Shown here: one piece after another, positions 5-33,300 of the stretch | Numbering within the stretch: the first letter of the stretch is position 1 | Layout of the letters: the number at the start of each line of letters is the position of its first letter | Virus record (IMG/VR): IMGVR_UViG_3300032322_002078 | Reading direction: 5' to 3' (one strand) | Source: an uncultured virus (IMG/VR IMGVR_UViG_3300032322_002078) | Lineage: Duplodnaviria; Heunggongvirae; Uroviricota; Caudoviricetes | DNA: 64,000 nucleotides | Made by a program: the position numbers and the translations under genes | The notes under the pieces: generated by a model | Told to the model about the DNA's origin: nothing | What the model saw: only the letters and a program-made list of their open reading frames with translations | Database searches by the model: none

Positions 5-661
5 TTGCATGTCAGTAGCGCTGCGATGAAAGCAACCACCGAAGAGATAGAGAAAACCGACTTTAAAAAGCATTTGTTCAGCATCGATTCCGAGGACCCG
101 GGAGCCGTATTCATCGGTGAGAAATCCAGTACCGAAGAACTCAGGTCTGCAATAGACTCCGTGGCTCGTGAACTAGGAGACGAGTTATTCCAAGCCATCC
201 ATAAGGAGCCGGCTTTCATGGCAACAGACGGTACGAGAGCCACGCTAGGAGTGGTAAGAGAAATTCTTAAGTCCAGGAAAGCCAAAGGCGAGGACATCAG
301 CATGACAACAGTTGTAGACCACGCCTACAAAAGTTTGACGGCAATGGCTGCCGGAATGGGCAGAGCGATTATGGAGAACATCGAATACCTATGTCAGACA
401 TCCCTGATGTTTATACGGCATGGCATGGAATTCCGTAACGATAAGGTTTCACAGCCCCTATACGCGATTTCCGGCGAATTCTTTTATGCTTACATGATTT
501 CCAGGATTGAAGCCAATACAGGTGGAGAAGTTAGTCCCATCACGTTTGTAAGAGATTTCTCCGCCAACAATACCGGACTACAGGATGTCGTATCCAGTGT
601 CGTACTTAAGGCTTTCTTATACGCGGCATGGCGATACAATAAAGAGATAGCTCCGTTATGA
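5..661 (+). CDS. hypothetical protein (start uncertain, near window edge)
   Basis: 218-aa ORF whose stop overlaps the next ATG (ATGA); no recognisable motif. Confidence 0.6.
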   Translation: MHVSSAAMKATTEEIEKTDFKKHLFSIDSEDPGAVFIGEKSSTEELRSAIDSVARELGDELFQAIHKEPAFMATDGTRATLGVVREILKSRKAKGEDISMTTVVDHAYKSLTAMAAGMGRAIMENIEYLCQTSLMFIRHGMEFRNDKVSQPLYAISGEFFYAYMISRIEANTGGEVSPITFVRDFSANNTGLQDVVSSVVLKAFLYAAWRYNKEIAPL

Positions 662-1365
662 AACTACTGGCATACATAAGAGTCAGCACAGACGATCAAT
701 CACTGAGCATGGAAGCCCAGATGAAGGACATCGTGGAGTTCTGCCGGGCTGGTGGTCATGAGCTAGTGGAGGTATTCTCAGACGAGGACGTCAGCGCATT
801 CAAGGAAATCTCCAAGAGACCCGGAGGTGCAAAACTTCTAAAGGCCAGCAGAGAACATCAAGATATCGGTGTGCTCTGCACTAGGATAGACCGGATGTTC
901 AGAAACGCTGTAGACGGTATGGTCACGGCAAAGAAATGGGAAGCCCTGAATATACCGATTTACATCAAGGCCATGGGTTCTAGCGTGGTGGTCACGGACA
1001 CCGCGACGGGATGGCTGTTGTTTCAAACCCTGTTGGTACATGCAGAATTCGAACGAAATCTAACAGCCGAGCGCACATCCGATGTCAAGAAAATGAGAAG
1101 GGATAAGTTGTTGAAGTACAGCTCTCAGGCTCCCTATGGCTGGCGATTCAATAAAGATGATAGTGAAAAGCTAGAGCACGACCCCGAAACCTGGCCAGTG
1201 GTTCAGAAAGTTTTCGAACTGCGAAGACTATGCTTTAGCTATGGCGAAATAATAGAAGAAGTACGCTCTACTCACGGCGTAGAACTTTATAAAATGTTAA
1301 TCAAACGAATCTTAGAACATGAACTCAACAACACAAACAAAACGCCGTCCGGGCAGGCTGCCTAA
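658..1365 (+). CDS. serine recombinase (resolvase/invertase family) with short C-terminal recombinase-type DNA-binding region
   Basis: N-terminal AYIRVSTDDQ (catalytic Ser), RPG, TRIDRMFRN, AEFERNLTAERT, and APYGW motif. Confidence 0.92.
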   Translation: MKLLAYIRVSTDDQSLSMEAQMKDIVEFCRAGGHELVEVFSDEDVSAFKEISKRPGGAKLLKASREHQDIGVLCTRIDRMFRNAVDGMVTAKKWEALNIPIYIKAMGSSVVVTDTATGWLLFQTLLVHAEFERNLTAERTSDVKKMRRDKLLKYSSQAPYGWRFNKDDSEKLEHDPETWPVVQKVFELRRLCFSYGEIIEEVRSTHGVELYKMLIKRILEHELNNTNKTPSGQAA

Positions 1366-4761: not shown

Positions 4762-4987
4762 GGCCAATAGAATCCTGCCGTTTTTAGAAAAAATAGGCAT
4801 GAAGACATCAGACTTCACTCCAGCTCAGCTAACCGCAATGCTGAAATTCGGCAACTATTGCGTGGAAAACCATAAGAAAGAAACCATTAAATACTGCTTG
4901 GCTGTGCAAGAAATTGGAGAGCTGCATCGCTGCGAGGCGCAGTGCGATAGCTGCAGGGCCGAAATACTTAAATCAAAACAGACTTAA
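4748..4987 (+). CDS. hypothetical protein
   Basis: 79 aa with Cys cluster CxxxCxxC; overlaps the upstream gene. Confidence 0.55.
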   Translation: MTKTEANRILPFLEKIGMKTSDFTPAQLTAMLKFGNYCVENHKKETIKYCLAVQEIGELHRCEAQCDSCRAEILKSKQT

Positions 4988-4989
4988 TC

Positions 4990-5160
4990 ATGAAACTAGA
5001 AAAAAACGATTTGTACTTTGCGCTAAAGCGCATGCCAAAAGAGCTGGTGTCTTTAATGAAATCCGATACCTGGATAGGGAAAATTTTCGTCGGAGACGCT
5101 ATCGAGGCCGCCAAGAGAGGCCGCCTGATAGCCAGAGGTTATTTTGGCGCGGACAAATGA
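4990..5160 (+). CDS. hypothetical protein (56 aa, below the ORF-track cutoff)
   Basis: Translated by hand: MKLEKNDLYFALKRMPKELV...GADK*; stop overlaps the ATG of the next gene. Confidence 0.5.
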   Translation: MKLEKNDLYFALKRMPKELVSLMKSDTWIGKIFVGDAIEAAKRGRLIARGYFGADK

Positions 5161-5801
5161 AAGTATTGCTGATGGGCGAAGAAAGTCAGATCACAACCAA
5201 GTTACTCAGGGCAAGAGGCCATGAAGCATTTTCGTGCGACCTCAAGCCCTGTAGTGGCGGACGTCCTGACTGGCACATACAGGGCGACGTGTATGAAATC
5301 TTGTCCCTGGATTGGGACATGATGATCGCACATCCTCCGTGTACATTCATAGCGGCATCTGGTCAGCGCTGGCTTAGCCATCCCGATGACAGCGGTCTTC
5401 CTTTCGATGACAGAAGACCACACCCCAGTTACCCCAACCGCAGAGCGGATCGCGATGCCGCCATACGCTTCGCTCTGTCTCTGTACTACTCACCCATACC
5501 GAAGGTCTGCATAGAGAACCCCATAGGCGCACTAAGCACAATCTGGAGGAAACCCGATCAGATCGTTCATCCCTGGATGTTTGGCGATGCCGCTAGTAAG
5601 GCTACTTGCCTCTGGCTGAAAGGGCTTCCTAAACTCGAACCCACGAACATCGTGGACAAAGGGGAATATGTCTACCTCAAGAACGGGAAGCGGGAGCAGA
5701 AATGGATCTATGACGCCAGGTGGGACAAGAAAAGAACACAGGAAATTAGAAGTAAAACATTCCCAGGAATGGCTGCGGCATTCGCTAGTCAATGGGGTTA
5801 A
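5157..5801 (+). CDS. phage DNA cytosine-5 methyltransferase-like protein (short type)
   Basis: MKVLLxxEES...AFSCDL, WDMMIAHPPCT (PC motif), IENP, KATCLWL, RSKTFPGMAAA. Confidence 0.8.
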   Translation: MKVLLMGEESQITTKLLRARGHEAFSCDLKPCSGGRPDWHIQGDVYEILSLDWDMMIAHPPCTFIAASGQRWLSHPDDSGLPFDDRRPHPSYPNRRADRDAAIRFALSLYYSPIPKVCIENPIGALSTIWRKPDQIVHPWMFGDAASKATCLWLKGLPKLEPTNIVDKGEYVYLKNGKREQKWIYDARWDKKRTQEIRSKTFPGMAAAFASQWG

Positions 5802-6970: not shown

Positions 6971-7002
6971 GTAATATCATTCTATAACAAATAAATAGAA
7001 TT

Positions 7003-7791
7003 ATGAATTTACACGATTACGACATAATTATCATCAACTCCAGCGGCGGAAAGGACTCTCTTTGCGCCCTCTGGGAGGTGTGCCGATTAGCCACTGAGCA
7101 GGGCTTCCCATTTGAAAAAATAACTGTATCGCATCAAGATTTAGGCGATATGGAATGGGCCGGAACAAAAGAACTGGTTAAGAGGCAGGCGGAATTATTC
7201 GGGTTGAAAACATACTACTCGAAACGTAGAAATAAAAATGGATATGAAGAAACGCTTTTGGAGTATGTGGAAAGGCGCGGTAAGTGGCCAAGTAATAAGC
7301 AGCGGTACTGCACTAGTGATTTTAAGCGGGGTCCAGGAGGAAGGGCAGTAACTGCCTTGACCACTGGGCTGGGAGAATGTAAAGTGCTGTATGTATTTGG
7401 ATTTCGTAAAGATGAAAGCCCATCCAGAGCGAAAAAGGAATCATTGAAACCAAACAAGCAGCTGACAACCAAAAGTCGCACGGTTCACGACTGGCTACCT
7501 ATTCACGACTGGGATAAAGAAAAGGTTTGGTCGACGATTACCGCTCACAACCTACCGTACCATCCAGCTTATGATTTAGGAATGCCACGCCTTTCTTGTT
7601 GCTTCTGTATATTCAGCCCATTTGATGCGCTAGTACTAGCTGGTAAAGCGAATCCTGAGTTACTGGATAAATACATTGAAGTAGAAAGGAAGATCGGACA
7701 CACCTTTAGGGATGGTTTTACAATCGAATCTGTGCGAGCGGCAATTAATAATAATTATGAACCGAAAGGTATCAATGACTGGGTAATGTAG
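7003..7791 (+). CDS. phosphoadenosine phosphosulfate (PAPS) reductase family protein
   Basis: PP-loop SSGGKDS, RYCTSDFK, GFRKDESPSR, PIHDW, HPAY, RLSCCFC. Confidence 0.9.
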   Translation: MNLHDYDIIIINSSGGKDSLCALWEVCRLATEQGFPFEKITVSHQDLGDMEWAGTKELVKRQAELFGLKTYYSKRRNKNGYEETLLEYVERRGKWPSNKQRYCTSDFKRGPGGRAVTALTTGLGECKVLYVFGFRKDESPSRAKKESLKPNKQLTTKSRTVHDWLPIHDWDKEKVWSTITAHNLPYHPAYDLGMPRLSCCFCIFSPFDALVLAGKANPELLDKYIEVERKIGHTFRDGFTIESVRAAINNNYEPKGINDWVM

Positions 7792-7800
7792 TATCACCTA

Positions 7801-7947
7801 TAACGTTTTACAGATAAGCAAAGGCACAAATAGAGTTGGCATTGTGCGTGGATAATTAAACAATTTAAACATTAAAATATGAAGCAAAATATAACCACAA
7901 ATGTTCAATCGGAGCCGCTCACCCTACCTGGCGCAAAACCCGTGTTA
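7801..7947 (+). repeat. attC-like junction site 1 (degenerate or chimeric)
   Basis: Starts TAACGTTT...AAGGC like site 2 and ends AAACCCGTGTTA, but its two arms do not pair with each other. Confidence 0.5.
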
Positions 7948-8271
7948 TCGGTTCGGGCTTCTTGTTCGTCCGGCAAATGGCAAGCCGTTAAAAATTCAAG
8001 TTGGTCTGAAAAACATGTAAGTGAATTTGGCAATAGAGCAGGATATGTGATTTGCCATCATAATAGAAACCGTGAATTAGTAGCAGTTGCTTCTGTTATA
8101 GGAATGCCGTTTGTTGACCAAAAGGAAATTGATGCAAATGCTAAATTGATTGAAGCTGCTCCTGCTCTACTGGATGCTCTTGAAAAATTCACATTGCTTG
8201 ATGAAAACCATTATAGAGATATAGCAGGTCTAATTCAATACGCTAAAAATGTTGTTGAGAAGCTGTCATAG
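7879..8271 (+). CDS. cassette A hypothetical phage protein
   Basis: 130 aa; C-terminal ANAKLIEAAPALLDAL resembles a widespread phage motif; starts inside site 1. Confidence 0.7.
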   Translation: MKQNITTNVQSEPLTLPGAKPVLSVRASCSSGKWQAVKNSSWSEKHVSEFGNRAGYVICHHNRNRELVAVASVIGMPFVDQKEIDANAKLIEAAPALLDALEKFTLLDENHYRDIAGLIQYAKNVVEKLS

Positions 8272-8280
8272 CCTGACCGC

Positions 8281-8366
8281 TAACGTTTGGCGGCTTGGCG
8301 AAGGCTGCCTAACGAATGCTCAAAGCTCGCACAATGTCTATGGCAGCTTTTGCCAAACCGCTGTTA
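8281..8366 (+). repeat. attC-like junction site 2 (imperfect palindrome)
   Basis: TAAC-GTTT-GGCGGCTTGGCGAAGGCTGCC ... GGCAGCTTTTGCCAAACCGCT-GTTA: 21-bp stem plus TAAC/GTTA pairing with a 4-nt bulge. Confidence 0.8.
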
Positions 8367-8409
8367 TGTGCTGGGCGGTTATCAGCACTAAATTTAATTT
8401 GAAAACGAA

Positions 8410-8574
8410 ATGACAGTACAAGAATTGATTAATGCACTTGAAAAACTACCGAAAGACAAAATTGTAGTTTTAACAGAACCTGACGGAATTGGTTGGGATA
8501 ATATCGGACAAGTAATCGAAGAGGGGAGCACAGTTAAAATCACAATGGATGGAAATCATCCATTCGAGGACTAA
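8410..8574 (+). CDS. cassette B hypothetical protein (54 aa, below the ORF-track cutoff)
   Basis: Translated by hand: MTVQELINALEKLPKDKIVVLTEPDG...NHPFED*; MTVxELIxxL is a common phage N-terminus. Confidence 0.7.
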   Translation: MTVQELINALEKLPKDKIVVLTEPDGIGWDNIGQVIEEGSTVKITMDGNHPFED

Positions 8575-8588
8575 TGTAGCCTTGCACA

Positions 8589-8712
8589 TAACGTGATGCG
8601 TGTATAAGAAGTGGCGGAATTTGAAACCAAAATTTTCAGCGAACGCAGAACTTAATTAGAAATGAAAAGTTTAAATTAACCGAGAACCCGCCATTTTTTA
8701 TACACGCTGTTA
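8589..8712 (+). repeat. attC-like junction site 3 (imperfect palindrome)
   Basis: TAAC-GTGA-TGCGTGTATAAGAAGTGGCGG ... CCGCCATTTTTTATACACGCT-GTTA: same geometry as site 2 with a different sequence. Confidence 0.8.
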
Positions 8713-8742
8713 GTGGCTGGGCTTTTCACAAATCAAATAGAA

Positions 8743-8967
8743 ATGGAAAAACAAATCAAAATGTATGGTGGTGATATGATTGCCAAATACCAAGAAACAG
8801 ATGAGAAAAAGCAGATGTTATGGGATGCTTTTATTAAGTGGTGTGAAGAACACAACGCATCAACTGGGGAAAGTTTCCAAAATGATGACTTTCAAATTGA
8901 TGCACCCGATTTTATGGCAGAAGCTATTGATAAAATTGTTGTGTTTGAAACGGAATGGGGTTCTTAG
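8743..8967 (+). CDS. cassette C hypothetical acidic protein
   Basis: MEKQIKMYGG...ETEWGS, lying between site 3 and the TAAC at 8977. Confidence 0.7.
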   Translation: MEKQIKMYGGDMIAKYQETDEKKQMLWDAFIKWCEEHNASTGESFQNDDFQIDAPDFMAEAIDKIVVFETEWGS

Positions 8968-9082
8968 CCTTGCCACTAACTACCCGCTATCCGCAACTTG
9001 TTACGCTTTAGGTGCAAAATTAGCGGGATATGCGAAAGATAACATCCACCCCTAACAGCGTGAACGACAAAACTAATTTAAA

Positions 9083-9286
9083 ATGAAATCAGCTTTTTTT
9101 ATTATGAAGATGTGGCAAACCGGAAACGTAGGTAGTCATAACATTAAAAAGTTTTCAGATAACCCGAAAGAAGGTTACGTAAGCTACGATGAAGCCAAAC
9201 AAGCAATGCTAAAGTTATGGGCAGAAGATAATTGGCAGTTAAAGAAAGGAGGTTATATGTTTTCAATAATGGAGATATTTTGGTAA
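9083..9286 (+). CDS. hypothetical protein flanked by 12-bp direct repeats
   Basis: 67 aa; GCGTGAACGACA at 9058-9069 and 9299-9310. Confidence 0.6.
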   Translation: MKSAFFIMKMWQTGNVGSHNIKKFSDNPKEGYVSYDEAKQAMLKLWAEDNWQLKKGGYMFSIMEIFW

Positions 9287-9375
9287 CAGAAAACAACCGC
9301 GTGAACGACATGGCTATGTAAGGCAGTTGAGGATTATTTAACAACCCACCGTTAATTTAACCGTACAAAGGAGCT

Positions 9376-10140
9376 ATGAAAACGCTCCTTTTTTTATTGC
9401 TGTCTCTAGCCGCAACAGCCCAGTGCAGCACACCATCCACACAAGCCAACACCTATCTAGCGCTACCCAGATTCTTAACCCTGTACTTAAGCGGACAATG
9501 CATCACAGCAGACATCCAGGACACCGTGATCTGCGTTCGGGCACCTCGCATGGACATCGGTCAAATCGCAGCATTTAGCTTCTCTACGCCGAACGGTAGT
9601 CCCGCAATGGTCTCGATGAAACAATACGACCAGGACTGCGTCTTGATCCAGGAAGACGGATTGATCTCTCCGGGCTACGACACCGTCACGGTATGCTATG
9701 AGATCCAAGCCAATACGATAGATAACTTCTGTCCGTACCTAGTCCAGGCTAACGGTCTGGCGGTGACGTGGTGCAGTCTTTATGCATACTACGACAGCGG
9801 AAGCCTGCATGTAAGATTCGTGACCTGCAGTAATGTCGGCACGATTCGGTATGATATCCTGCAGAGCAGCGATGCTCAAAACTGGATAACTATCGGAACC
9901 CTAAAACCTGAATTCCAGACAAGCTCAATGGAGTCGGAATACAGATTAGATATAGACTGGCACAGAGGCGGAGAAAACTACATCGCAATCCGCGAAGTCG
10001 ATGTCAATGGAAATGTAGACATCAGTGAAGTAATACATGTTTTTATCCCATACCCTGTAAATCCAAAGATGTCTGGCATAGACCTTATGGGTCGCCAAAC
10101 GCAAGACACCAGTTACCAATTCACAATACCGGTTAAATAA
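9376..10140 (+). CDS. secreted protein resembling Bacteroidota T9SS-type cargo
   Basis: Signal peptide ending ATA-Q, Cys-rich N-domain, LAVTWCSL...QSSDAQNWITIG...YIAIREVDVNG beta-sandwich pattern, DLMGRQ near the C-terminus. Confidence 0.65.
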   Translation: MKTLLFLLLSLAATAQCSTPSTQANTYLALPRFLTLYLSGQCITADIQDTVICVRAPRMDIGQIAAFSFSTPNGSPAMVSMKQYDQDCVLIQEDGLISPGYDTVTVCYEIQANTIDNFCPYLVQANGLAVTWCSLYAYYDSGSLHVRFVTCSNVGTIRYDILQSSDAQNWITIGTLKPEFQTSSMESEYRLDIDWHRGGENYIAIREVDVNGNVDISEVIHVFIPYPVNPKMSGIDLMGRQTQDTSYQFTIPVK

Positions 10141-21350: not shown

Positions 21351-24300
21351 TCACTTCTTAGATCTTAAAGATTTGATTTGTTTGGTAATGAATTCGTTTA
21401 TGGCGGGTTCTGACACAGCTGAACTCAATACGGCGTCGGTTTCGTCGATAAACATCATTGACGAACCCTCTTTCCCGAATAGATCTTCTAATATAACGCG
21501 CTTGTAACTAGCGGCGCCTTGGTAATACTGAAGACCTTTTTCGATCATGGCGTTAAAAACCTCGATAGGCATTGCCTCTAGCCGATCTGGATTTTCTTTC
21601 TCCACGACATCTCTGATTATGCGCTTATATGAATCCCTTGCTTTTTCCATCTCCTTTAGAGTGAACTGCTTGCGAGTTACGTTACCATCGGCATCCACCA
21701 GGTAGTAATTCGAGAAATCCGCGCTGAGGTGTTTAGTGCTGCCCTTATTCTCAAACATCGCAATGTATCTGGCTTCCGTAGGATTGAATTTGAGTTCGGA
21801 AAACGCATCCACTAGGTAATTAACTCCTAGTGGCAATTCTCTTTTAAGACTCCAGGTCACAGGATATCCGAATGGACCGGTTTCATTGTTATCGATGACG
21901 ATATCGCTTACTATCGGCATTTTGAACACCATGAACTCGTTGAACTCCCTGGGATCTTCTTGCGCCCAATCATTGAGATAGGATATATCCCTGTAGGTGT
22001 TCTTGACCTCTGCGGGCAGCAGCCCGGATGAAATCAGACCTGCTGCCTGTTTTTCGATATACAGCAACGCCTTCTCCATTTTATTTGCATCAGCTGAGCT
22101 ATACATGCCCTCAGAGTTGGTGAGCTGAATTATATCGTTAAGAGGCTTGAGCATGGACTGCTCCTTGACCATCGATAAAGATGATAGTGAAGAGGCCGAG
22201 AGAGATTTGATCGCCCACATGATGCCTCTGGCCTCGGCTTTTACATCATCTCGCCCGGAGAAAAGAAGATCATCATACATCGCACCGGTATCCGAGAACA
22301 AGCTGAATAATATGGGGTTATCCACATACCTTATGAGCTTTCTTCCGTACACATATATGGTTCCGGGTTCCAAGCCTGTGCGTCTTTGGAACGCCATCGA
22401 CATGCCGTAGTTCTTACCTTTGTAGCCATAAAACCTACCGCTTACGAAAAGCGGGATTTCTTTCCATCTCGCTTTTGAGTTCGGCGTGCCTTCCGGGGCT
22501 TCCGGATCTCCAAACATGTAATTAATTCTCCTGTTTACCGGGATGGACTGCAGGACATCTATGCCCTCTGATTTTAACCGATCCAATTCTTCTTGCGAGA
22601 ACCGATCTTTTTCTGGATCTTCATCATAGCCCGTCATGATTGCCGATAGTACCTGAGAACCCACCGCCATAGCTACACCTACTTTAGCCGCATTGAAAAA
22701 TACGTAATCAATGAGCATGTCCTGCTTCTCTTTATTGAAAGCGCCGGTGCCATAAAAATCAGTTCGGATGCCATGTCGGTCCGCTAGTTCCTTGGATATG
22801 ACAAGACCCCTTCTTTTCTCCATCATGCGTACCGGTAATAGAATTCCGCCGGTCAGCATGTTTGTCTTCAGCGCCCATGCCGTGAAGTTCATGGGGGCGT
22901 TAACAAAGGTCGCGATGAAGAATTTAGACATCGGGATGAATTTGCCTAGGTACTGCTGGATAACCGCCACGGCCCCTAGTGTGCCTTCAGGGGTTTCCAT
23001 CAATCCTATCTTGCGGCTCAACCAGGTGGCGTCTGCGATAACTTTTTCTAACCCGGCCTGGGTTAACCCGGAGAGGTAATCGTGCTGAGCTGCTAGCGCT
23101 TTTGCCCGGCTGTTGATGGTTTGATAAGTGATCTCCATGATGCGTGATTGTATCATGAGCTTGTTATCCCTTATGACCTTGGCCTTGGTTTTGTCATCGG
23201 CTCCCTGCGGGGTGTCGGTCATGGTGTACAGCTCTTCCATGGCCTTAATGACGGCTCCCATCCAAACATTTCCATTTGACCCCAATATCTCGTCAACTAT
23301 CTCGGCTTTCTGGGCTTGAGTTAACTTGACCCCCTTGCCGGGGTTATTGAGGTTGTATTCCTTGGTTATACTTTCCAGGTAATCATACATGAGGTCAGCT
23401 GTATGCCCTTGTTGGGCCATAGCTGCTGTCAGCATATCGATCCCGCCTAGTATTCTGCCCGGCATCCTGGTGAATCTTCCCCATGCGCGAGCCAGTTTTG
23501 TTTTTCCGTTTTTAGCGAAGACCTCTGATACGCTCTCGGTCTCGATGACGTTGGTCTCACGCTTGCCCTTCATGGCCAGCATAAACTCCGTAGCTCCGGA
23601 CGAAAAGCCCGTAATGCTTGCGTTGTTGAAGAAAAGCAACGGCATCAACATATCATACCTAGGATTGTTGGGAGATACGGTTTCTTCGCCTAGTTTGAAA
23701 TGTAGCTCCCCCTTTTTTATCGGAACCCCATCCATATCCACCATGTCTTTAGTGGCGGTTTCTTCACTTAACTTGTATCCGGTTTTACTAAAGAAACCCT
23801 TAGCGGCCAGACCGGCCGCGTAGACGTTACCGCCCAAAGCATTTCTGGCTACTGTCCTTAAAGTTGTGTAAGGGAATGTAAGCGCATTCGAATTAAATGC
23901 CTTCATCATGGTATCGCTTGACATCAGGATAAAGGAGTAGAAATGCGCTGTGATTACAGCCAACTTGCTGAACTGATTTTCGATTTGATGCATCCTGACG
24001 AACTGCATCATCTCGTTGTAGAGGTGGGATCTGAATACGCTGTCAACAGGCGTCTTCGATATCATTTCGGCGTAGGTCTCCAAGATGTCTCTGACGTCGT
24101 CATCCATGTACGGCACATTGAACATCTCACTGAATAACTTGGCGGCATCAGTCAGGCTTCCGTCTGGATTCGTGACCGTGAGTTTACCGGGTTCGAATGC
24201 GCCGTATTTTATCAGCCTGAAGAGCCTTTCGGCCTCTGGGGTTTCTTTCCTGATGTCTTCCTCAAATTTTTTGGCACTCTTTAGTTTTGGCAAACTTCTC

Positions 24301-27300
24301 TTGAGTGCGCGGATTGACTCATCCTCTAACAAGGTGTCGTACTCATCGGCAAAGGCCTCAGCTAGTGCCATAGATTGTCTAGCGCCTAGTGCGCCGAATG
24401 TGGCTCTATCTATCCTGTCGGCTAGCTTGTTAACGAAGTCAGACTTGCTGTCGGCCTGTATGTCTACAGAAGAAAGTAGTATCTGGTTGAGGTCAATTGA
24501 ATTGGCCTCGATCTCGTCTTTAACCATCTTCTGCAATACAGTGTATTTGTTCCCGTATGGCGTGTCCTTGATTAAAAACGGATCTATGTCGTTTGCGAAA
24601 TAAGCATTAAGATCTCTTTTCATCGCTGCTTTTTCCGCAAGACTGTATATAGTAGGATCTAGGTTGTCAATCATGTCTTCAGCATATCCCTTAGAGAGCT
24701 CCCATGCGCTTTTGGCGTCTGCGAACACATTGAGGATTTCAACTATTTTCTGCTGGGCGGACATGGCCGTATTTGGGGTTTTGCCCAGGTCTTCTGTAGC
24801 CTTCCTGTAGAGCTGATCTATCATGAATGACAGCGGATCGAACGGCTTCTGCCCCTTCGGGGGCTTGGCTTGGTTTACCACTTTTTCTGCTAGTCTTTTG
24901 GCTATGACCTCACCTCTTTTTGCTAAGGCATTAGATTCTACGGCATCCCAGGCGTACACAAAGTAATCCGGATCTATCGACATGATATCGAGCCCTGACT
25001 TCATGAATCGCTTGTGTATTCTACGGAATATCTCTCCCTGATCGTAGATATCGTAGGCATCAATGTATTCCAAAGCCAGATCGACAATGGCATTAACTAC
25101 ATCGGGGTCCAAGGTAGCCGGTATCGCCCTGGCTTTTCGGATTCCGAATTTACCCTTGATGAAGTCGATAATAGATTTTTCTTTCTGCGCCACGCGCTGA
25201 CGCACAGTGGTCGGTACGCTTGGAGGCGGAGCCGGGGGGTTCGGAGCTGTCGGTGGAGTAGGGCTCGCCGGCGCCCCGGAAGCGGCTTGCTGGGCCTGTT
25301 TTACGGCTTGCTTTACTTTTGGCGTTTGAGCTGCCTTTGAAGCCGCTTTTGTTTTTGCTGCCTTAACTCTTCTCTGCGCTTGCTTTACGTCCTGTGACTT
25401 GCTTTTCGGGGCGTCATCATCGGTTAATGCGCGAGCCGATTGAGTTTTTATCTTCCTGGATTCCAGGGAGAAAATCATCTCCGGACTGTTGGCGTAAAGC
25501 CTGTAGAGCGCTGCGTTAGCGCGTCCATCTCTAGTGGCCTGATCCGCTAGCTGATCCATAAAGGATTCCGCCATCAGCCTGTATTTTGTACGAGTGTCGG
25601 CATCACTGGCTTGCCTGGCTAGTTTATAGGCCTGGTTGGCGATGCCTCCCATGACCATTGTTCTTACGCCGCCTTGGAGCTCCATAGCGAAAGACATGAG
25701 CTCGGGTTCGGATATACCATCTATCCCGCCCACAGCCTCCAACATTAGTTCGGCTACAGCTTCGGCCTCGGCTTGGTTCTCTACTGTATAGCCGAGGTTC
25801 CTTACCATGTTTTCGATAATTCTCCTGTTGACCCTTCTGGATGCCGGAAGACCTAGTAACGCTGTTACTACCCTTGATCTGACCGATGACTTTCCTTTTC
25901 TTCCGTATTCCAGTGTCCAGAGCCCGTCCTTCTTTACGTATTCAGGGCGGCGCTCAGACACCACGTCATAGTAAAGCCTGGTGGCATCCTGTACGCTTAT
26001 CGATATCATGTTGTCCCTCAGGCCTATCATGAAGTCCGACACCACTGCGGATACGTCCTTTCTTTCTTGCTCGGTCATCTCGTCGTAGATCTCTTTGGCG
26101 TAGTCATACATTTTACCTTGGAGGCTTCTGTAAACGCTGTCACTAGCTGTTGACAATGACTGCGGATCGTATTCCATGTAAGACGGAACCTTTGCTTTTC
26201 TGGACTCCGACCCGATCGGAGTCTGGATCTCGTCACCCTTGGATTCATATGCAATTACGGCGGGGGAAGACAAAGAAGGGAAGCTGGCTGCGATTGCCTT
26301 CCTAGTGACCTCACCGGAGGATTGTTTCTTTTTTGAAAAATTAACCGCAGACTCAGGTGCAATACCCTTATTACTTTTATCCCAATTACTCTTGTTTGCG
26401 TTGTCGACCTTGCCTATGAAGTCAGATAATCCTGATCTGAATGACTCTTCAGCATCCCTGTAGAGTAATGGGTTAGCCATTGCTCTGTAGTAAATATTAC
26501 TCAACTCTCTTGCCTGGGTTCTTAAATCTGCTGGAACATTAGGATCTCTGTCTATTTCGTAAAAATAGTGACCCACGCCATCGGGTATAGCCCAGCCCAA
26601 GGATGCTCTTATTTTCTTCAACTTGGCTATGGCTACATTTGTGTAATCGTAGTCTCCGTCGTCGTCTTTGAAATACTTTATACCGTCTTTAGCTAGGTAT
26701 CCATCTATGGTCATGACTTGTATTTCGGCTATTTTCCCATTCGAAGTCTGTATCTCAACAAGTCTTTTTGGATATCCGAGTTCAGTTGTTTCCATTTCAT
26801 TCCGCCTTAAATCAAACCGGAATCTTTTAACTATTTCTCGATAAAGAGTTTGGGCCTCTTTGTTATTTCCTACGAGAATATTAACCCTGCTTCCATCGCC
26901 TAGCGCGGTTGGTGTGGAGTCATACCATCGAACCGTTTTTATGGCGGCTCGAGATGGCCTCTTGATAGGGAATTTCGTTACGAAAGACCTTGGAACTATC
27001 TCTGCTATTTCATTGGCTATGGCTTCTATTTCCTTCTTGGCTTGCTCATAGCGAGTTTTGTCGTTTTCGAAAACAGGCTCTATACCATCTGCCAAGAATT
27101 TTTCCAACTCGGATATCTTAGCCAGTTCGTCATCAGTTAGTATCTTACCTTGCTCTGAATAATCTAGCTGTTTTTTACGCAATAATTGATACTTCTCTAA
27201 CTCTTCTGATTTTTCGATTCGTTTTTGTTCTTCGAAGGATCCCATCCTTTCGGTGGCTTTATCCCAAACATTATCGAGGTCTGTCCCGCTCTCGAATAAT

Positions 27301-30300
27301 CTAGGGGCGTCTCTCTTAATTCTTTCAAAAACCTCTCTCCGGGAGTCATATCCTGGGAAGTCTGCTCTTTGGGGGTATCTTTTTCTTGATTTGATTCTGC
27401 CTCCATTTTTGTCTATTTTGTTGATTAGTAAAGGTAATTTATTGTTAAATGCTTCATCGCCAAAATCCAGTAGAACTATAGTGTTTCCGTCTATCGAAAA
27501 GCCGTCTTGCTCAAAGCTGACATCTCTTAGTGATTGCAGAGCAATCTCTATGTTGTCTACTTCCATCTCAACTCTAACCGCATTAAAGCCTTGGTTTTCA
27601 GCAGCGTATCTAAGAACAGATACGCTGTTCTGTATTTCCGGTGCAATTAACCCAAGCAGCTGCGCAAAATCAGTAGCCTGCTCGGCGGTTACACCGCTAA
27701 GAGTTATGGCTACAGATGGCTCGGAAGATCCGTCATACCCTCCTATCGCATCTCTTAGGGATAAAACATTTATACCTAGCGCATCGGCTAGTAAACCTAT
27801 ATTTTTCTTGAATTCTATGTACGGACGAGATTGTTTGTATTTATCAAAGTCTGCGTACTCATGAATGTAGGTTTTATAAAAGGGGGCGGCAAAAAGAGTT
27901 GTTTCGTCGTCTGCTTGCTTTTGCAGTGACCTTTCGTCGCCTTGATCTATAGGCTGATCCGGAGCCACACGTTCTGTCCAGGTCCAAGATGGCATGAGGC
28001 CTACTTTTTGTTCTGCAAAAACTGTGTCTTCAATTTTAGCCGTTTGATTTGTCTCACCATACGGGCCGAAATAAAGCCAAGAGTTTTGGCCTCTTGTCTC
28101 TGATGTCATAGCGGCTATTGCTGAACCCGTGAACAACCTTACATGCGATTGCCAGGCATTCTCTTCTCCCATGGCTCTGAATCCAGCGCCTTCTAACCCG
28201 TGGCCAAAAGCATCATGGACAGCTCTAAATAAGTCATTGGCAGTAACTTTTCTTAAAACGCCGTCTTGATCCTCCCACATCAGGCCTGTGTCGGCTAACA
28301 TTGGATTTTCATCGATGTCTGATTGCGTTATTTCTTCTGTTCCGTATCCATCATAAGTTCCGTACACCGCCATTTTTTTATTGGCTCTCAAGTCCCTCAT
28401 CGCGTTCCACGGATTTCCTTTGTATGGATCTGATTTTGAGTCAAAAAACGTAAATTCATAACCGTCTTCAACTAGAGCTGCGTACTGAGCTTTTGTCTGC
28501 CTTATAAGATTTTTGTAAGCATCTATGACGGCTTTATTGCGAGGGTCGTGCACCATTTTCTCATAGGCGTATGCAAGTCTTTTTGAAAACTCGACATATA
28601 TGGGCATGTACTCGGCTTGCCTTTTTAGGTCTATTCCGTTTTCTTTTGCGTATTTTTCTGCGACTCTGACGAGGTTGATGTCTGGCCCTGTCGCGCCTTG
28701 AATAACTGGCGCACCTTCAAGCGGCGCAATGACTCTTGTCTCTCCCCGTCCTGCTCGGTTTCCTCTCTGTTGTGGTCTGTTTTCATTTTTATTTAGTTGT
28801 AAGTTTTTTAATAAACCGCCTTCTGATACCACGATTCCTGTGTATCCTGCGTCTGCCAATAATGCATCTCCGGCTTCTTGGGAGCCCATGGCTTCGGATA
28901 AAAGCCTTCGGAAGTCCGAAACCTTAGATCCAACAATACCCGGAGTCACCGCCCTGGCTAATGCGGTTTTCTGCACACCTATTTCTTTGGCGATGTCAAC
29001 GAATTCATCTATCGGCGTACCTGGCTCTTGGGATCTGCCGGCTCGAGAGGCGTCATAGACTTTTTTAAATGTCTTCCTGTCGATAAGTTTGTTTTTGACA
29101 GCGACATCAGCCACTCTTTTAATTATGGATGACGTAACCGGCTCATCGAATGCTAGGTATCTAGCACCGGCTTCGGCTTCGCTGATCTCAACTGCCCTCC
29201 TTTGGGCCGGTGTCATATCATCCAGTTTTTTCTGGCGCTTAGCTACTGCGGCTCGCCTGGATGATTCTGCTTGCTGTTGCTCTATCCTGTACCCATACTT
29301 TTCCGCGACAGATGAAGTCAGGGCTTCGCTAACACCCTGGTAACTGCTTCCCTGTGTAAACCCAGCAAAATCATTTAAGAACTGAGATAATTCGATGTAT
29401 TTGTTGTACTTGGATTTTATCTGTATTGACTTTATGGATTGCGGGGACATGCCTAGCTTGGTGGCGACTCTGGCGATGATGTCATTTATTTTTTTAATCA
29501 TCCTGGCAGCTATACCCGGATTGGCTTTTATTTCCGTGGTCGCCATTAAGGACTGCAGCTCTGTTATGACTTCTTCATACCTAATGTTGCCTTGGTATTG
29601 AGCTGCCCAGGCTTTTGCTGAAGCCACCATCTGGCTAGGTAAGATTTTTTCAAGATCTTCAATTATTTCAGAATACAATCCAGACGCATCTTCTCCAAAA
29701 GCCTTAACCAATACAGTATGGCCTAATTCGTGCTGAAGTATACCCTGAAACAGCTGCTCCCCACTCATTTTCTTATAGAGCCACTTACTGAATAAACCCT
29801 GCTGGGCTCCGTATGCATTTCTGAATGCAGTTGGGTTCTCGTAGGCCACGCGCAGTAATTCGAGGTTTACATGGATGCCCCAAGACGGATTTCCCCTCGA
29901 ATCGATGTCTTTTTGGACCAATGCGAAGCTGTCTGATCCATCTCTGGCAACGGCCAGGAACTCTGACTGATTCCTGTATACATACAGGTTTACTCCGATC
30001 TGCGCGGCTGCGCGGCTTATCCTGTCCAACACTTTAGCCATAAATGAATTGGGCTCAAGTGAGGTGTTTGCCGTCCTATCGGGGTCGATTTGAGACCACC
30101 TGGCTTTCGCCATGGCCTCTGATTCGGTCTGGGTTTGCGCGGATGGGCTAGTGGCCGCGTTGAGGTATTTTCTGGCCGGTGCTTGACCTGCAGGTCTTTT
30201 TTTAGCTAGTTGATTAGCTATATCAGAAAGCGCAGCTACATCCTTTCCGACATTACTCATCACGGTGGTAAGTTGAGATATAGCCTTGTTTAAGGCCTTT

Positions 30301-33300
30301 CTATCTTTCTCTGTAGTGGCTTGTTGTGCGCGATCCTGTAGTCCGGATAGAAGCTGATTCATTTGCTTCCATCTTGAGTAGAGCCAATCAGATGCATTCA
30401 TCGCAGACTCTTCGGTTATGCCATTGTTTTCCTGGTCAGCTTTCTCTAGGGCATTAACGGTTTCTATAACGTCCTGAGGCGCCATAGATGTAACCAGATC
30501 CATGTCATCTATGGATTGCCCTGCCTTTGTTCTTGAGGCTACTTCGTCGATCGTAAGTCCAGGTAGAACCGCAGCGCTGTACTCCGACTTCATGGATTGA
30601 GCTGCTTTCTGATCTCTGATTCTCTTGGCTTGTTGGATTGCGCCATTTATGGTGTTTACAGCGGCCTTAAATGGTTCCGAGAAGCCGTCTATGGGTCCGG
30701 ATAGCGATATTTTAACGGCTCCAGATACCACAGCGTTTAGGAACTCGGGATCGTTAGCCACCCTGCTCACCACGTCGTCCTGAGTCAGAATTACTGACTT
30801 GCCGTCAGCAAACCTAGCTATGGGGATATAAACCTGCTGACCACTCAATACTGAGTTTATATCTTTTTGAATGGCCTTTGCCCTGGTTTCGTAATGTGAC
30901 TTCGAGACCGGATCGGCTTCTGATCTGGCTTGCTCTATCAGATAATCGTGCTGGTATGCCATGGAGGCATATACAGATGAATATTCTTCAGACAAGCCGT
31001 TCTGCGAAGCTGTTTTACTATAGGCTTCAGCTTTTTTGGCATCAGCCATGAGTTTTTCGTACTCAACCTTTGATATAGCGCCTCCGGAGTATGCTTGTGT
31101 TATTACGGAAACCGCAAAATCAGTTCCTTTGACCTGTGTTAATTTATAAATTAACTGGCTTTTTATAGCCGGATTGGCATCAGATAAAGATATTTCAGCT
31201 AGGGCAGCGGCTTTTAACTTCGCTTCAAGGTTTACGGCATTGTTATGCGCCATGGCGCCGCTCATGGCACCTACACCTAGCATTCCTACGCTTTGAACCG
31301 CTACGGAATTAAACCTCTTTAGCTCGGCGTCTTGGCCGCTTAGCAGGTTTACAACAGCATCTCCAAATTCGCTTCGAAAGTCTTTTCCCTCGATGATGGC
31401 TTTTTCGAAAACGGTTTGGGGCCATTCCTGGGTGGCCACCTCTGTTGTGTATTCAGTAATCCCGCCAGCCAGAGCTCTACCAGCAAAGGTTTTGCCTGCC
31501 TTGCCGAATACTTTATAAAAACCTGATATAAACGGAAGCATTTCGATGATGTACGACGGCGCAATGGCGAGCTGAGATTCTATCGCCTGGCGATACCCAT
31601 TTAATGCTTTTTCGTATGACCCCGTACTTTCAAGTATCTGCTTCTCAATGCTCCCCGCTATAGAAGCTGTTTCTAGCGTATAGTTTGTAACCGCCGCTGC
31701 TGAGGACGCCGCTAGCGTCATGGCCTCTGTTGCGAATGGACTTCTGGATACCATCATTACAGCCGCCCCTGTCAGTGCAGTGGGGGCCTGTGTGCCTAAT
31801 ATATTTCCAGCTAGCTTTCCGAAATTTTGGGCGTCTAGCACAGATGCCCAGGTCTCTTCAGCGGGCTGCATCTTGTAGTCTTCAGCCATTCTGCCTCCCA
31901 TCTTCATAAGCAGTGGGCTATCTGTAGCATATCCTATACTTTCGACATAACCGCCGAGTGACGATATTAATGTAGGGATCAACTGCGCAACGAGTTCCGA
32001 ATTGTAAAGAGCCGGGTTGGACCTGGAGAACGCTTGTATAGACACTCTTTCGGCTGCCGATAACTCAGTTTCTCTTTGAGCTGTGATCTTTGATACAGCC
32101 TCCGATACCATTGATTCAAAAACCTTTTGATAGTCGATTCCGTTTTTCTTTAAGAAACCCTCAAACTCATTGTTTATAGCGTCTTTATATTTGGAGTTAA
32201 TTATTTGATCCTGCCGATCCTGCCTGGCCTGATATTTAGAGCTTAAAGCAGCTAGCTCATCTAGTTCTTGTTGTTGAGCGCCTTCGAATTGACCCACAAG
32301 CTCTTCGTAACCGGCGTTGTACTCATCGGTTAGGGATTGGTATGCCTGCTGGGCTTCCTCGGGATCTGCGCCGTTGTTGACGGACTGCTGCAATTGCTGA
32401 ACCGCTGAATTATACTGTTTTGTAAGTATTTCTATTGATGAATTTATGCCATCAAATTTAGCCCTGTAATTCCCGTTAACCACGTCGTTTTCGGCGCGAA
32501 GCTCTTGTTTATACGAGTTTCTTGATGCAGTTACTTCAGCATCTCTTTTTACCAGAGTTTTGCTAATGGTCTTGAAGTCCTTTAACAACAATTCTGCATC
32601 TGCCTCTTGTTGCTCCTGCAGTTTTGGGATGATCTCGTCTTTAACAACTTGCTCAATTCTAGGAAGCAGGTACTTGGCTTTTGCCTGGGCTTCTAGTTCT
32701 CCGCGATACAGCTTCCATGCGGCTCCGCCGATCTGAAGTCTGTTTTTTATCGCGAATTCATCCGCTGCATCATCTACAGCTCGTTGATTTATTCTGTCGG
32801 CCTTGTAGTCGTAAAATGCAGACCATCCGCCAGCGTCTACAAGAGAACCAACATCTGAGGCCACTTGCTTTTGAGTTGATTTAAAATACTTATCGCTTTC
32901 CGTTACTAGCTCTTGGTATCTTTTGTATTCTTGAGATGCGGGTTTCGATGGATCTTGATTGTAAACCGCTTTTGCTAGCTGCCATGCGCTTCTCTGTGGG
33001 CCCGGCGGAGGTGGAGATGCCTGATTCGGATCTGATGACATCCACTGATCTACCAAATGCATTGCGGTCTGAGTGGACTCATATCCGTGTATTTCCTGCT
33101 GGGGTTGACTAAGCATGAGTCTTTCCGCTATCGGAGCAAGCCCTGATCCAGACGGAATCGTCATGGTCGGATTTCCGGCATTCGAAAACCCAGAAGGCGT
33201 TGTCAGATCCGATTTTACTTGGCGCATTTTAGCTCGATTTGCCTGGACTTTTTTGTATCCCTGCCTAACTGCTTCCTGACTAGATAAACCTGAATTCACT

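What the first reader, a model, noticed from the sequence alone, without database searches (positions are those of the whole stretch)
7801..8980. Integron-like gene-cassette array in a phage, with non-canonical attC-like sites and cassette-specific complementary ends
Seen in sequence: three small co-oriented ORFs (7879-8271, 8410-8574, 8743-8967) are separated by imperfect palindromes that start TAAC just after a stop codon and end GTTA before the next gene. The flanks of a single palindrome do not match each other. Instead, each cassette's left end matches its own right end. A: GTTATCGGTTCGGGCT (7944) / AGCCTGACCGCTAAC (8284). B: GTTATGTGCTGGGC (8363) / GCCTTGCACATAAC (8592). C: GTTAGTGGCTGGGCT (8709) / AGCCTTGCCACTAAC (8980). 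Established knowledge: integron cassettes follow this logic, where crossover at G/TT makes array sites hybrids and the excised circle restores a fully paired attC. Differences from integrons: cores violate RYYYAAC/GTTRRRY, end complementarity extends ~14 bp, cargo looks like phage genes, and no IntI/tyrosine recombinase is visible in the window. Inference: a phage-borne, integron-like gene shuffling system using a distinct site family and an unidentified recombinase.
Basis: partly seen in the sequence, partly recalled or inferred. Interest (0 to 1): 0.9.

Follow-up and report, generated by a model that had tools for sequence, protein, structure and literature searches.

The report
Hairpin-bounded mobile gene cassettes in phage
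Three small phage genes sit in a row of swappable DNA units, each made of a folding hairpin, one gene and matching ends; it works much like a bacterial integron, but related phages pair it with a simpler recombinase that this stretch lacks.

Summary
Window 7805-8980 is a row of three co-oriented units: A 7805-8284, B 8285-8592, C 8593-8980. Each is a hairpin, a left end GTTA-x-CTGGGC, one ORF, and a right end AGCC-T-x'-TAAC at the stop codon. Each left end pairs with its own right end, not with the end across the hairpin.

The design is widespread in phage contigs. In 60 sites defined without any pairing rule, own ends pair at 12 or more of 15 positions in 44, neighbouring ends in 6.

It is mobile DNA. 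Two near-identical contigs differ by two whole units inserted right after (T/C)AAC.

The unit is the hairpin plus the gene downstream of it, and the crossover lies at the right-end AAC, not at G/TTA of the left end.

A candidate enzyme exists in relatives: a 266-276 aa XerA-like tyrosine recombinase lacking the IntI insertion. Strict cassettes near it: 83 upstream on its strand, 0 downstream, 0 on the other strand. This window has none, so its array resembles a CALIN.

One relative (Polaribacter phage P12002L) is in print as a phage "CALIN". This scan has also noted the family before on other DNA.

Catalysis and single-strand folding are inferred, not shown.

The parts
7789..7804 (+). Docking end after the PAPS reductase gene: stop TAG, then T-N6-TAAC (TAAC = 7801-7804). 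The array begins right after it.
   Evidence: Relatives of this gene also end TAG-N10-11-TAAC.
7805..8284 (+). Cassette A: a decayed hairpin whose loop holds the start codon, then the left end, ORF and right end.
   Evidence: Folding is weak (own ends -19.1 kcal/mol, z -0.8).
7930..7959 (+). Right arm of A's hairpin (7930-7943) and left end L(A) at 7944-7959, both translated as part of ORF A (the ..AKPVLSVRA.. stretch).
   Evidence: The same module opens a different gene in L172. It pairs 14 of 15 with 8270-8284 if one base bulges.
7879..8271 (+). ORF A, 130 aa, function unknown (phrog_1273, unknown function).
8270..8284 (+). Right end R(A), AGCC-T-GACCGC-TAAC, overlapping the stop codon.
   Evidence: A metagenome contig departs from the window exactly after 8284 (table 7).
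8285..8592 (+). Cassette B: hairpin, left end, 5' leader, ORF, right end.
8285..8362 (+). Hairpin of B (arms 8290-8309 and 8342-8361). The same element occurs at 81% identity in a 642-kb uncultured phage.
8363..8377 (+). Left end L(B), GTTATGTGCTGGGCG.
8410..8574 (+). ORF B, 54 aa, unknown function. Homologues occur in 10 viral contigs, with and without cassette ends.
8578..8592 (+). Right end R(B), AGCCTTGCACATAAC.
   Evidence: Contigs depart from the window at 8592/8593.
8593..8980 (+). Cassette C: hairpin, left end, ORF, right end. The whole unit is shared at 97.8% identity with another viral contig that has different neighbours.
8593..8708 (+). Hairpin of C (arms 8598-8617 and 8688-8707, 70-nt loop). 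A homologous hairpin occurs in Flavobacterium phage hattifnatt9-1.
8709..8723 (+). Left end L(C), GTTAGTGGCTGGGCT.
8743..8967 (+). ORF C, 74 aa, no family match.
8966..8980 (+). Right end R(C), AGCCTTGCCACTAAC. This is the end of the array; the backbone resumes with TA...
   Evidence: Contig breaks at 8980.

Best explanation
Window 7805-8980 is a three-unit array of a hairpin-site gene-cassette system found in phages of Bacteroidota-type hosts. Each unit is a long imperfect hairpin, a left end (GTTR + about 11 nt), one ORF, and a right end (T-N6-(T/C)AAC) at the stop codon.

Units are inserted and lost as wholes by site-specific recombination at the AAC of a right end. An excised circle would join a unit's right end to its own hairpin and left end, giving one fully paired stem. 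In the array each hairpin is flanked by ends from two different units, which is why neighbouring ends do not match.

The likely enzyme is a small XerA-like tyrosine recombinase that related phages encode directly downstream of such arrays, on the same strand. This window has none, so its array is either served in trans or is a parked remnant.

Read on the + strand, the order is AAC | hairpin | GTT..gene..AAC. That is the polarity of the recombined (bottom) strand of an integron, but with the gene in sense on that strand. The site therefore precedes the gene and can supply its leader, or even its first codons, as in unit A.

Shown: the anatomy, own-end covariation, whole-unit indels, and the polar link between recombinase and arrays. 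Inferred: that this recombinase does the cutting, that the site folds as single-stranded DNA, and which strand folds.
For: (1) Anatomy in the window.

(2) The same design surrounds unrelated genes. Of 120 loci from a motif scan, 46 have a framework right end within 1500 nt, and 44 of those carry the exact complement of the left core.

(3) Own ends versus neighbouring ends. In 95 distinct cassettes, own ends pair at a mean of 13.9 of 15 positions (selected for 13 or more) and neighbouring ends at 9.5. The variable core is fully paired in 95 of 95 own pairs and 3 of 95 neighbour pairs.

(4) Test without a pairing rule. In 60 sites defined only by hairpin, ORF and the first (T/C)AAC after the stop, own ends pair at 12 or more positions in 44 and at 14 or more in 32. 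Neighbours reach 12 or more in 6 and 14 or more in 0. Shuffled partners reach 12 or more in 35 of 300. Three to four Watson-Crick pair types occur at most variable positions, and position 11 is G.T in 35 of 44.

(5) Mobility. L155 and L156 share a 94-100% identical backbone but differ by two whole units of about 268 and 348 nt. Each was inserted right after (T/C)AAC, with only 4-7 nt shared at the joints.

(6) Unit C is shared with L152 from the hairpin to the TAAC. Gene B has a different downstream hairpin in each of 5 contexts.

(7) The 5' ends of shared segments fall within 8 nt of a (T/C)AAC in 71 of 160 cases, against 179 of 1191 random positions.

(8) Recombinase link. Strict cassettes near relatives of the recombinase: 83 upstream on its strand, 0 downstream, 0 on the other strand. 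After dereplication, 44 of 54 loci have at least one, and in 17 the last right end lies 33-62 nt before the start codon. The finder gives no hit in the 64-kb window on either strand other than B and C.

(9) Folding with DNA parameters. Own-end sites: B -30.9 (z -5.5), C -33.6 (z -7.2). Array junctions: -21.5 and -26.0.
Against: No tyrosine recombinase in the window (52 ORFs of at least 90 aa; tblastn E > 2). Both window ends cut ORFs, and I could not find the rest of the record.

Only 4 of 30 cassette-bearing viral records have the recombinase, 3 of 11 among records at least 90% complete. Most carriers therefore lack it.

Only two clean whole-unit indels were found.

Gene B occurs with two different upstream hairpins, so exchange also happens at or near the left end.

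Unit A's hairpin is decayed and its folding is no better than shuffles.

No circle junction was seen, because only assembled contigs were on hand.

Among bacterial genomes with more distant relatives of the recombinase, only 6 of 76 loci have a cassette upstream.

The strict finder was built from features of the family, so counts made with it are not independent of the definition. One search is the independent test.
Confidence: 0.75

Rival explanations
1. The hairpins and matched ends are RNA-level signals (processing sites, stabilising 5'-3' stems or translational switches around each cistron). Genes are shuffled only because these conserved modules serve as patches for homologous recombination, as proposed for the PeSL cassettes of T4-type phages.
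For: The left end lies in the 5' leader and the right end at the stop codon. The conserved non-Watson-Crick pair is G.T, which would be a G.U pair in RNA of the sense strand. A local hairpin (8368-8373 with 8383-8388) competes with the long-range pairing and covaries with it in another end type. ORF bodies are swapped between constant leaders and right ends. PeSL-mediated shuffling and mini-circles are documented in T4-type phages (PMC2839356, abstract read).
Against: The joints of the two whole-unit indels share only 4-7 nt, too little for homologous exchange. There is a strict polar link to a tyrosine recombinase gene. No terminator-like site lies on the + strand and no strong sigma-70-like promoter sits in the B and C junctions; that scan does not cover Bacteroidota promoters. 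Homologues of gene B function in other phages without any such ends. An RNA role alongside DNA mobility is not excluded.
Confidence: 0.1
2. These are ordinary integron attC sites, a CALIN, moved by a classical IntI integrase of the host or of another element.
For: Qi et al. 2023 (PMC9892861, passages read) found attC-like sites by HattCI and Infernal in Polaribacter phage P12002L. One of them recombined with attI1 under IntI1 in E. coli. That phage's array has the same TAAC | hairpin | GTTA design with matched own ends.
Against: The hairpin travels with the downstream gene, and the genes are inverted relative to integron polarity. The cores do not fit RYYYAAC/GTTRRRY. The recombinase found beside arrays lacks the IntI insertion and scores below the integron-integrase cut-off: 150-167 bits against 265. 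It lies downstream and co-oriented, not divergent at an attI. End pairing extends over 15 nt.
Confidence: 0.07
3. Each gene with its ends is a small transposon with terminal inverted repeats, or an IS200/IS605-type single-strand element moved by a transposase.
For: 14-15 nt imperfect inverted repeats flank each gene, and subterminal hairpins are present.
Against: The repeat sequence differs from unit to unit with compensatory changes, which fits pairing rather than recognition of one fixed sequence. There are no target-site duplications at the two indels. A Y1 transposase occurs in 1 of 30 carrier records and a serine recombinase in 0 of 30. Units insert hairpin-first at AAC, not as left-end-to-right-end segments.
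Confidence: 0.03

Closest known systems
Integrons (IntI integrase, attI, attC-bounded cassettes)
   Same: Arrays of single-ORF cassettes in one orientation. Sites are imperfect hairpins with conserved AAC...GTT. The array holds hybrid sites, and each cassette's two ends are complementary, so a circle restores a fully paired site. A tyrosine recombinase gene lies beside the array.
   Different: The recombinase is XerA-like, 266-276 aa, and lacks the IntI-specific insertion. It lies downstream of the array and is co-oriented with it. The hairpin precedes its gene, so genes are inverted relative to site polarity, and some genes start inside the hairpin loop. End pairing spans about 15 nt with a fixed G.T pair. 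The cores do not fit RYYYAAC/GTTRRRY. The system is phage-borne.
CALINs, including those reported in phages (Qi et al. 2023, PMC9892861; Cury et al. 2016, PMC4889954; passages read)
   Same: An array of such sites with no integrase nearby, as in this window. The P12002L 'CALIN' has the same design.
   Different: A CALIN is defined by attC hits of IntegronFinder, which I could not run. The published account treats the sites as attC served by IntI. It does not describe the matched 15-nt ends, the hairpin-plus-downstream-gene unit or a Xer-like recombinase: 0 occurrences of 'Xer' or 'TAAC' in its main text. Its supplements were not read.
PeSL regulatory cassettes of T4-type phages (Arbiol et al. 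2010, PMC2839356, abstract read)
   Same: Stem-loop motifs between small accessory genes of a phage, with gene gain, loss and replacement at these motifs. Circles are proposed as intermediates.
   Different: PeSLs are a sigma-70 promoter plus a terminator, exchanged by recombination between near-identical copies. Here the joints share 4-7 nt, the ends covary unit by unit, and a dedicated recombinase is linked.
Single-strand hairpin substrates of Xer recombinases (for example integration of CTX phage; recalled, not checked here)
   Same: A Xer-type enzyme acting on a folded single-strand site would be the nearest mechanistic precedent.
   Different: That case integrates a whole phage at a chromosomal dif site, not gene cassettes in arrays. 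The comparison rests on memory only.

Membership tests
Integron (classical) | IntI integrase carrying the IntI-specific insertion in the catalytic domain (essential according to PMC8138268, passage read) | tested here: not met
   No tyrosine recombinase in the window. The relatives' enzyme scores 150-167 bits on TIGR02249, below the cut-off of 265, and matches in two stretches. Against IntI4 (2a3v) it has 33 residues where IntI4 has 80, while it aligns end to end with a XerA-like protein, 4a8e.
Integron (classical) | attC with R''/R' cores RYYYAAC / GTTRRRY | tested here: not met
   Only AAC and GTT are kept. The 7-mers ACATAAC, CACTAAC and CGCTAAC, and GTTATGT, GTTAGTG and GTTATCG, break the R/Y pattern.
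Integron (classical) | Cassette = ORF plus the attC downstream of it; crossover at G|TT at the 3' end of attC on the gene's sense strand | tested here: not met
   Indels and shared units show the unit is the hairpin plus the downstream ORF, with the crossover at or within the AAC of the right end.
Integron (classical) | Integrase next to attI, divergent from the array | tested here: not met
   In relatives the recombinase follows the last right end by 33-62 nt on the same strand. Cassettes: 83 upstream, 0 downstream, 0 on the other strand.
Integron (classical) | Hybrid sites in the array; each cassette's own ends complementary | tested here: met
Integron / CALIN | Sites detected by the attC covariance model (IntegronFinder or HattCI) | not testable with these tools
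   No attC model is on hand. Rfam gave no hit at E up to 10 apart from two chance-level rows. Qi et al. report such hits for P12002L.
CALIN | At least two sites in a cluster with no integrase nearby | tested here: met
   Two intact hairpin sites and one decayed site lie within 7805-8723. No tyrosine recombinase lies in the 64-kb window. This holds only if the sites count as attC.
Phage hairpin-cassette family (defined here from relatives) | Right end T-N6-(T/C)AAC at the stop codon | tested here: met
   A, B, C and the PAPS reductase end all fit. T at position -11 in 43 of 44 relatives.
Phage hairpin-cassette family (defined here from relatives) | Hairpin between AAC and GTTR | tested here: met
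   B and C are strong. A is decayed.
Phage hairpin-cassette family (defined here from relatives) | Own ends pair at 13 or more of 15 positions, with G.T at position 11 | tested here: met
   B 13, C 14. A 14 with one bulge.
Phage hairpin-cassette family (defined here from relatives) | XerA-like recombinase at the 3' end of the array | tested here: not met
   Absent from the window. The sequence beyond the window could not be fetched.
PeSL cassettes | Strong sigma-70 promoter plus terminator stem-loop; exchange between near-identical copies | tested here: not met
   No terminator-like site on the + strand, and only weak 9-of-12 promoter-like matches, none in the B and C junctions. Joints share 4-7 nt. 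Caveat: Bacteroidota promoters are not covered by the scan.

The most novel reading that the evidence does not exclude
This is a second, independently built cassette-capture system that lives in phages. A plain XerA-like recombinase would recombine folded single-strand sites assembled from a hairpin plus a 15-bp stem formed by a cassette's own two ends, with the gene looped out.

In this reading the stem gives every unit in the array its own recombinase-binding arm. The site sits in front of the gene and supplies its leader or first codons. Arrays without a recombinase, such as this one, are served in trans during co-infection. The system would thereby drive exchange of small accessory (possibly anti-defence) genes among Bacteroidota phages, from 35-kb viruses to 640-kb giants.
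Probability: 0.5. Interest if true: 0.9.

Novelty: new variant of a known kind. Interest (0 to 1): 0.78.

Why it matters
Phage genomes are mosaics, and how single small accessory genes move between unrelated phages is largely unexplained. This points to a defined, testable mechanism: a recognisable site grammar, precise borders, and a candidate enzyme far simpler than the integron integrase.

It would let annotators recognise many phage ORFans as mobile cassettes. It would give a handle on where anti-defence and DNA-modification genes are stocked. It would also show that the integron principle arose more than once. The ORF-precise borders touch the old open question of how cassettes are made.

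For this window the practical result is corrected unit borders and exact joints to look for.

Tried and rejected
- **Rfam on 7000-10000 at E up to 10:** two chance-level rows, nothing relevant.
- **Generic search for any GTTR...YAAC pair with 12 or more of 14 pairs:** 51 and 29 hits per strand against about 48 in shuffles, so it is useless without the frame and the position relative to ORFs.
- **First script for the neighbour test:** too strict, only 3 rows. Replaced.
- **Relatives of the PAPS reductase gene (28 loci):** none carries cassettes B or C, and only that gene is shared at DNA level in the 12 compared. No synteny test of this phage itself was possible.
- **Whole genome of the window:** not held.
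- **Exact-stretch scans for the window's own record:** 0 matches in viral and in metagenome contigs. Whether a recombinase lies outside the window stays open.
- **Reads:** only assembled contigs were on hand. No circle junction or rare deletion can be seen in them, and parts without cover say nothing.
- **All-against-all indel search:** 6 distinct events, of which only 2 are cassette indels. The other 4 are ordinary gene or bacterial indels.
- **Serine recombinase of the window as the cassette enzyme:** 0 of 30 carrier records have one.
- **Y1 transposase:** 1 of 30.
- **Relatives of gene A:** only the hairpin-encoded first 30 residues matched.
- **Literature:** five searches gave no paper describing a Xer-like recombinase with hairpin cassettes in phages. 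Subscription journals and supplements were not covered.
Full report
**1. What is in the window**

Downstream of a PAPS reductase gene (7003-7791; Pfam PF01507) lie three small co-oriented ORFs: 7879-8271, 8410-8574 and 8743-8967.

Right after, or overlapping, each stop codon is a right end of the form AGCC-T-N6-TAAC: 8270-8284, 8578-8592 and 8966-8980. The PAPS reductase gene ends the same way, with TAAC at 7801-7804.

Each TAAC is followed by a long imperfect hairpin, with arms 8290-8309/8342-8361 and 8598-8617/8688-8707. Each hairpin closes just before a left end: GTTATGTGCTGGGCG at 8363 and GTTAGTGGCTGGGCT at 8709.

Left and right ends of the same gene pair at 13 and 14 of 15 positions. The ends on either side of one hairpin pair at 10 and 11, four of which are the fixed TAAC/GTTA.

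The exact frames GTTA-N4-CTGGGC and GCCTTG-N4-TAAC occur only at these places in the 64 kb. Looser matches are at chance level. Rfam gives nothing.

**2. Unit A**

It is not.

- With one bulged base it pairs at 14 of 15 positions with 8270-8284, the best partner within 3 kb.
- It is preceded by a right-arm sequence typical of the family.
- Another viral contig (L172) shares only the first 30 residues of ORF A, followed by an unrelated gene with its own matched ends.

In these units the start codon sits in the hairpin loop, and the right arm plus left end are translated.

In the window the left arm of A's hairpin has been replaced. Folding is no better than shuffles.

**3. The design is a widespread family**

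blastn against named phages matched the intergenic elements, not the genes. The hits were two uncultured phages of 634-642 kb and Flavobacterium phage hattifnatt9-1. In each, the gene behind the element again has matched ends with a different core.

Of these, 46 had a framework right end within 1500 nt downstream, and 44 of the 46 carried the exact complement of the left core. The ORFs between the ends differ.

A stricter finder gave no hit in the window on either strand other than B and C. It gave 95 distinct cassettes in the fetched loci. Ends covary over all 15 positions, and the variable core is fully paired in 95 of 95 own pairs against 3 of 95 neighbour pairs.

That finder demands pairing, so I repeated the test with sites defined only by a hairpin, an ORF of at least 30 aa, and the first (T/C)AAC after its stop. 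Of 82 such sites, 60 have that AAC:

| Comparison | 12 or more of 15 paired | 14 or more of 15 paired |
|---|---|---|
| Own ends | 44 of 60 | 32 of 60 |
| Neighbouring ends | 6 of 60 | 0 of 60 |
| Shuffled partners | 35 of 300 | 10 of 300 |

Position 11 is G.T in 35 of 44, and the right end has T at position -11 in 43 of 44.

**4. It is mobile DNA, and where the borders lie**

Gene B has relatives in 10 viral contigs.

- Four carry it at 100% protein identity between the same ends.
- Three AT-rich phages carry it with no such ends at all.
- The hairpin downstream of gene B differs in all 5 cassette contexts.
- The upstream hairpin falls into two classes.

Unit C is shared with L152 at 97.8% identity from the hairpin to the TAAC, with different neighbours on both sides.

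L155 and L156 share a 94-100% identical backbone and differ by two whole units present only in L156. Each unit is hairpin + left end + ORF + right end. Each is inserted right after (T/C)AAC, and only 4-7 nt are shared at the joints.

It does not.

Across 312 distinct ends of shared segments:

- 5' ends lie within 8 nt of a (T/C)AAC in 71 of 160.
- Random positions do so in 179 of 1191.
- 3' ends do so in 32 of 152, because many shared segments stop at the start codon.

Contigs of three lake or freshwater metagenomes carry the window's hairpins and ends at high depth. They skip or replace the ORF bodies and leave the window at 8284, 8592/8593 and 8980. These are contigs only, and X1 may be the source of the window.

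**5. The enzyme**

The window has no tyrosine recombinase (52 ORFs of at least 90 aa). It does have a small serine recombinase at 658-1365, but 0 of 30 cassette-bearing viral records have one. A Y1 transposase occurs in 1 of 30.

A tyrosine recombinase occurs in 4 of those 30 records, and in 3 of the 11 that are at least 90% complete. All four proteins are small and alike.

- Three are 266-276 aa and 38-54% identical to each other.
- The fourth is a 199-aa open frame, 46% identical to one of them over 204 residues.
- In all four records the gene follows the last right end of an array on the same strand, after an AT-rich spacer.

I then searched from the recombinase side. It has 232 relatives in viral contigs, of which 80 were kept.

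- Strict cassettes lie 83 times upstream on the recombinase strand, 0 times downstream and 0 times on the other strand.
- After dereplication at 97% identity, 44 of 54 loci with at least 500 nt upstream have at least one cassette.
- In 17 loci the last right end is 33-62 nt from the start codon.

In bacterial genomes, mostly Bacteroidota with 40-64% identity, the link is weak: 6 of 76.

The protein is closest to XerA-type models (179-201 bits, cut-off 220). It is below the integron-integrase cut-off and lacks the IntI insertion. tblastn of three such proteins against the window finds nothing.

Both window ends cut ORFs, and I could not fetch the rest of the record. The phage may still encode the recombinase elsewhere.

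**6. How it most likely works**

Recombination at the AAC of two successive right ends would release hairpin + left end + ORF + right end as a circle. In the circle, the right end abuts its own hairpin and left end.

Folded with DNA parameters, these own-end sites are much more stable than the hybrid junctions in the array:

| Unit | Own-end site (kcal/mol) | Junction as in array (kcal/mol) |
|---|---|---|
| A | -19.1 (z -0.8) | -10.5 |
| B | -30.9 (z -5.5) | -21.5 |
| C | -33.6 (z -7.2) | -26.0 |

Read on the + strand, the order AAC | hairpin | GTT-gene-AAC is that of the recombined bottom strand of an integron, as I recall integron geometry. The difference is that the gene is in sense on that strand. 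This explains why the site precedes the gene.

The fixed G.T pair favours folding of the + strand, but it could equally be a recognised mismatch on the other strand. I leave the strand open.

Catalysis by the Xer-like enzyme, single-strand folding and action in trans are inferences.

**7. Rivals**

- **RNA role with PeSL-like homologous exchange (abstract of PMC2839356).** It cannot explain the short joints or the polar link to the recombinase. It may coexist with DNA mobility. The scan found no terminator-like sites in the junctions.
- **Classical integron or CALIN.** See the membership table. Four of five testable defining features are not met.
- **Transposon with inverted repeats.** See the rival entries.

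**8. What is known**

Qi et al. 2023 (PMC9892861, passages read) reported a CALIN in Polaribacter phage P12002L. One of its sites was recombined by IntI1 in E. coli. I found the same design in that phage. Their main text does not mention a Xer-type enzyme or TAAC ends. I did not read their supplements.

Five literature searches gave nothing closer.

Earlier notes of this scan describe the same family on at least 13 other genomes. I used them as leads and re-tested the unit definition, the end pairing and the recombinase link on my own loci.

**9. Verdict**

The integron-like reading is right in its logic. It is wrong on the borders and too strong on novelty.

The window holds a recombinase-less three-unit array of a scarcely described phage cassette system. 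The cargo is three small proteins of unknown function, next to DNA-modification genes: a DNA methyltransferase at 4914-5801 and the PAPS reductase.

Noticed in passing
window 9054-9310: Gene D (9083-9286, 67 aa, no family) is flanked by a 16-nt direct repeat, AAC(A/C)GCGTGAACGACA, at 9054 and 9295. Contigs of two lake metagenomes run from 8980 to 9073 and then continue with sequence like window 9311-9345. They therefore lack gene D, which is an insertion of a different kind.
   Followed up: partly
window 8981-9073: The stretch after the array has a CCCGCTA...TAGCGGG stem and ends in CTAAC. It recurs with 7 differences in 94 nt in other contexts in two metagenomes, so it is a further mobile or conserved module.
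   Followed up: partly
window 6983-7804: The PAPS reductase gene is the only segment shared at DNA level with 12 related viral contigs. It is bounded by TATAAC on both sides (6983-6988 and 7799-7804) and has no hairpin or left end. It may be a hairpin-less unit or a docking gene.
   Followed up: partly
window 8368-8388: A local hairpin, GTGCTG...CAGCAC, just after the left end of B uses the same bases as the long-range pairing. In the CCTG end type both partners change together (L001). This is a three-way covariation that the DNA model does not need.
   Followed up: partly
window 8408-8413 and 8570-8576; 8732-8745 and 8959-8965: ORF bodies are replaced exactly between the start codon and the stop or right end, while leader and right end stay constant, in many contigs. 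How new ORFs enter a constant frame is unexplained.
   Followed up: partly
window 658-1365: A small serine recombinase (235 aa; Resolvase domain E 1e-25; PHROG integrase or invertase families) lies 6.5 kb upstream of the array. It is not linked to cassettes in other records.
   Followed up: partly
loci L001-L173 (table): Distances from AAC to GTTR cluster near 40, 68, 80 and 118 nt, suggesting a few discrete hairpin classes.
   Followed up: no
window 21351-33800 (- strand): A single 4149-aa ORF. It was not searched against any family.
   Followed up: no
window 60633-60767: GTTAGGTTGTTAGG and CCAAATAACCTAAC pair at 13 of 14 positions, 120 nt apart. That is within the chance range of the generic search and was not examined further.
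   Followed up: no
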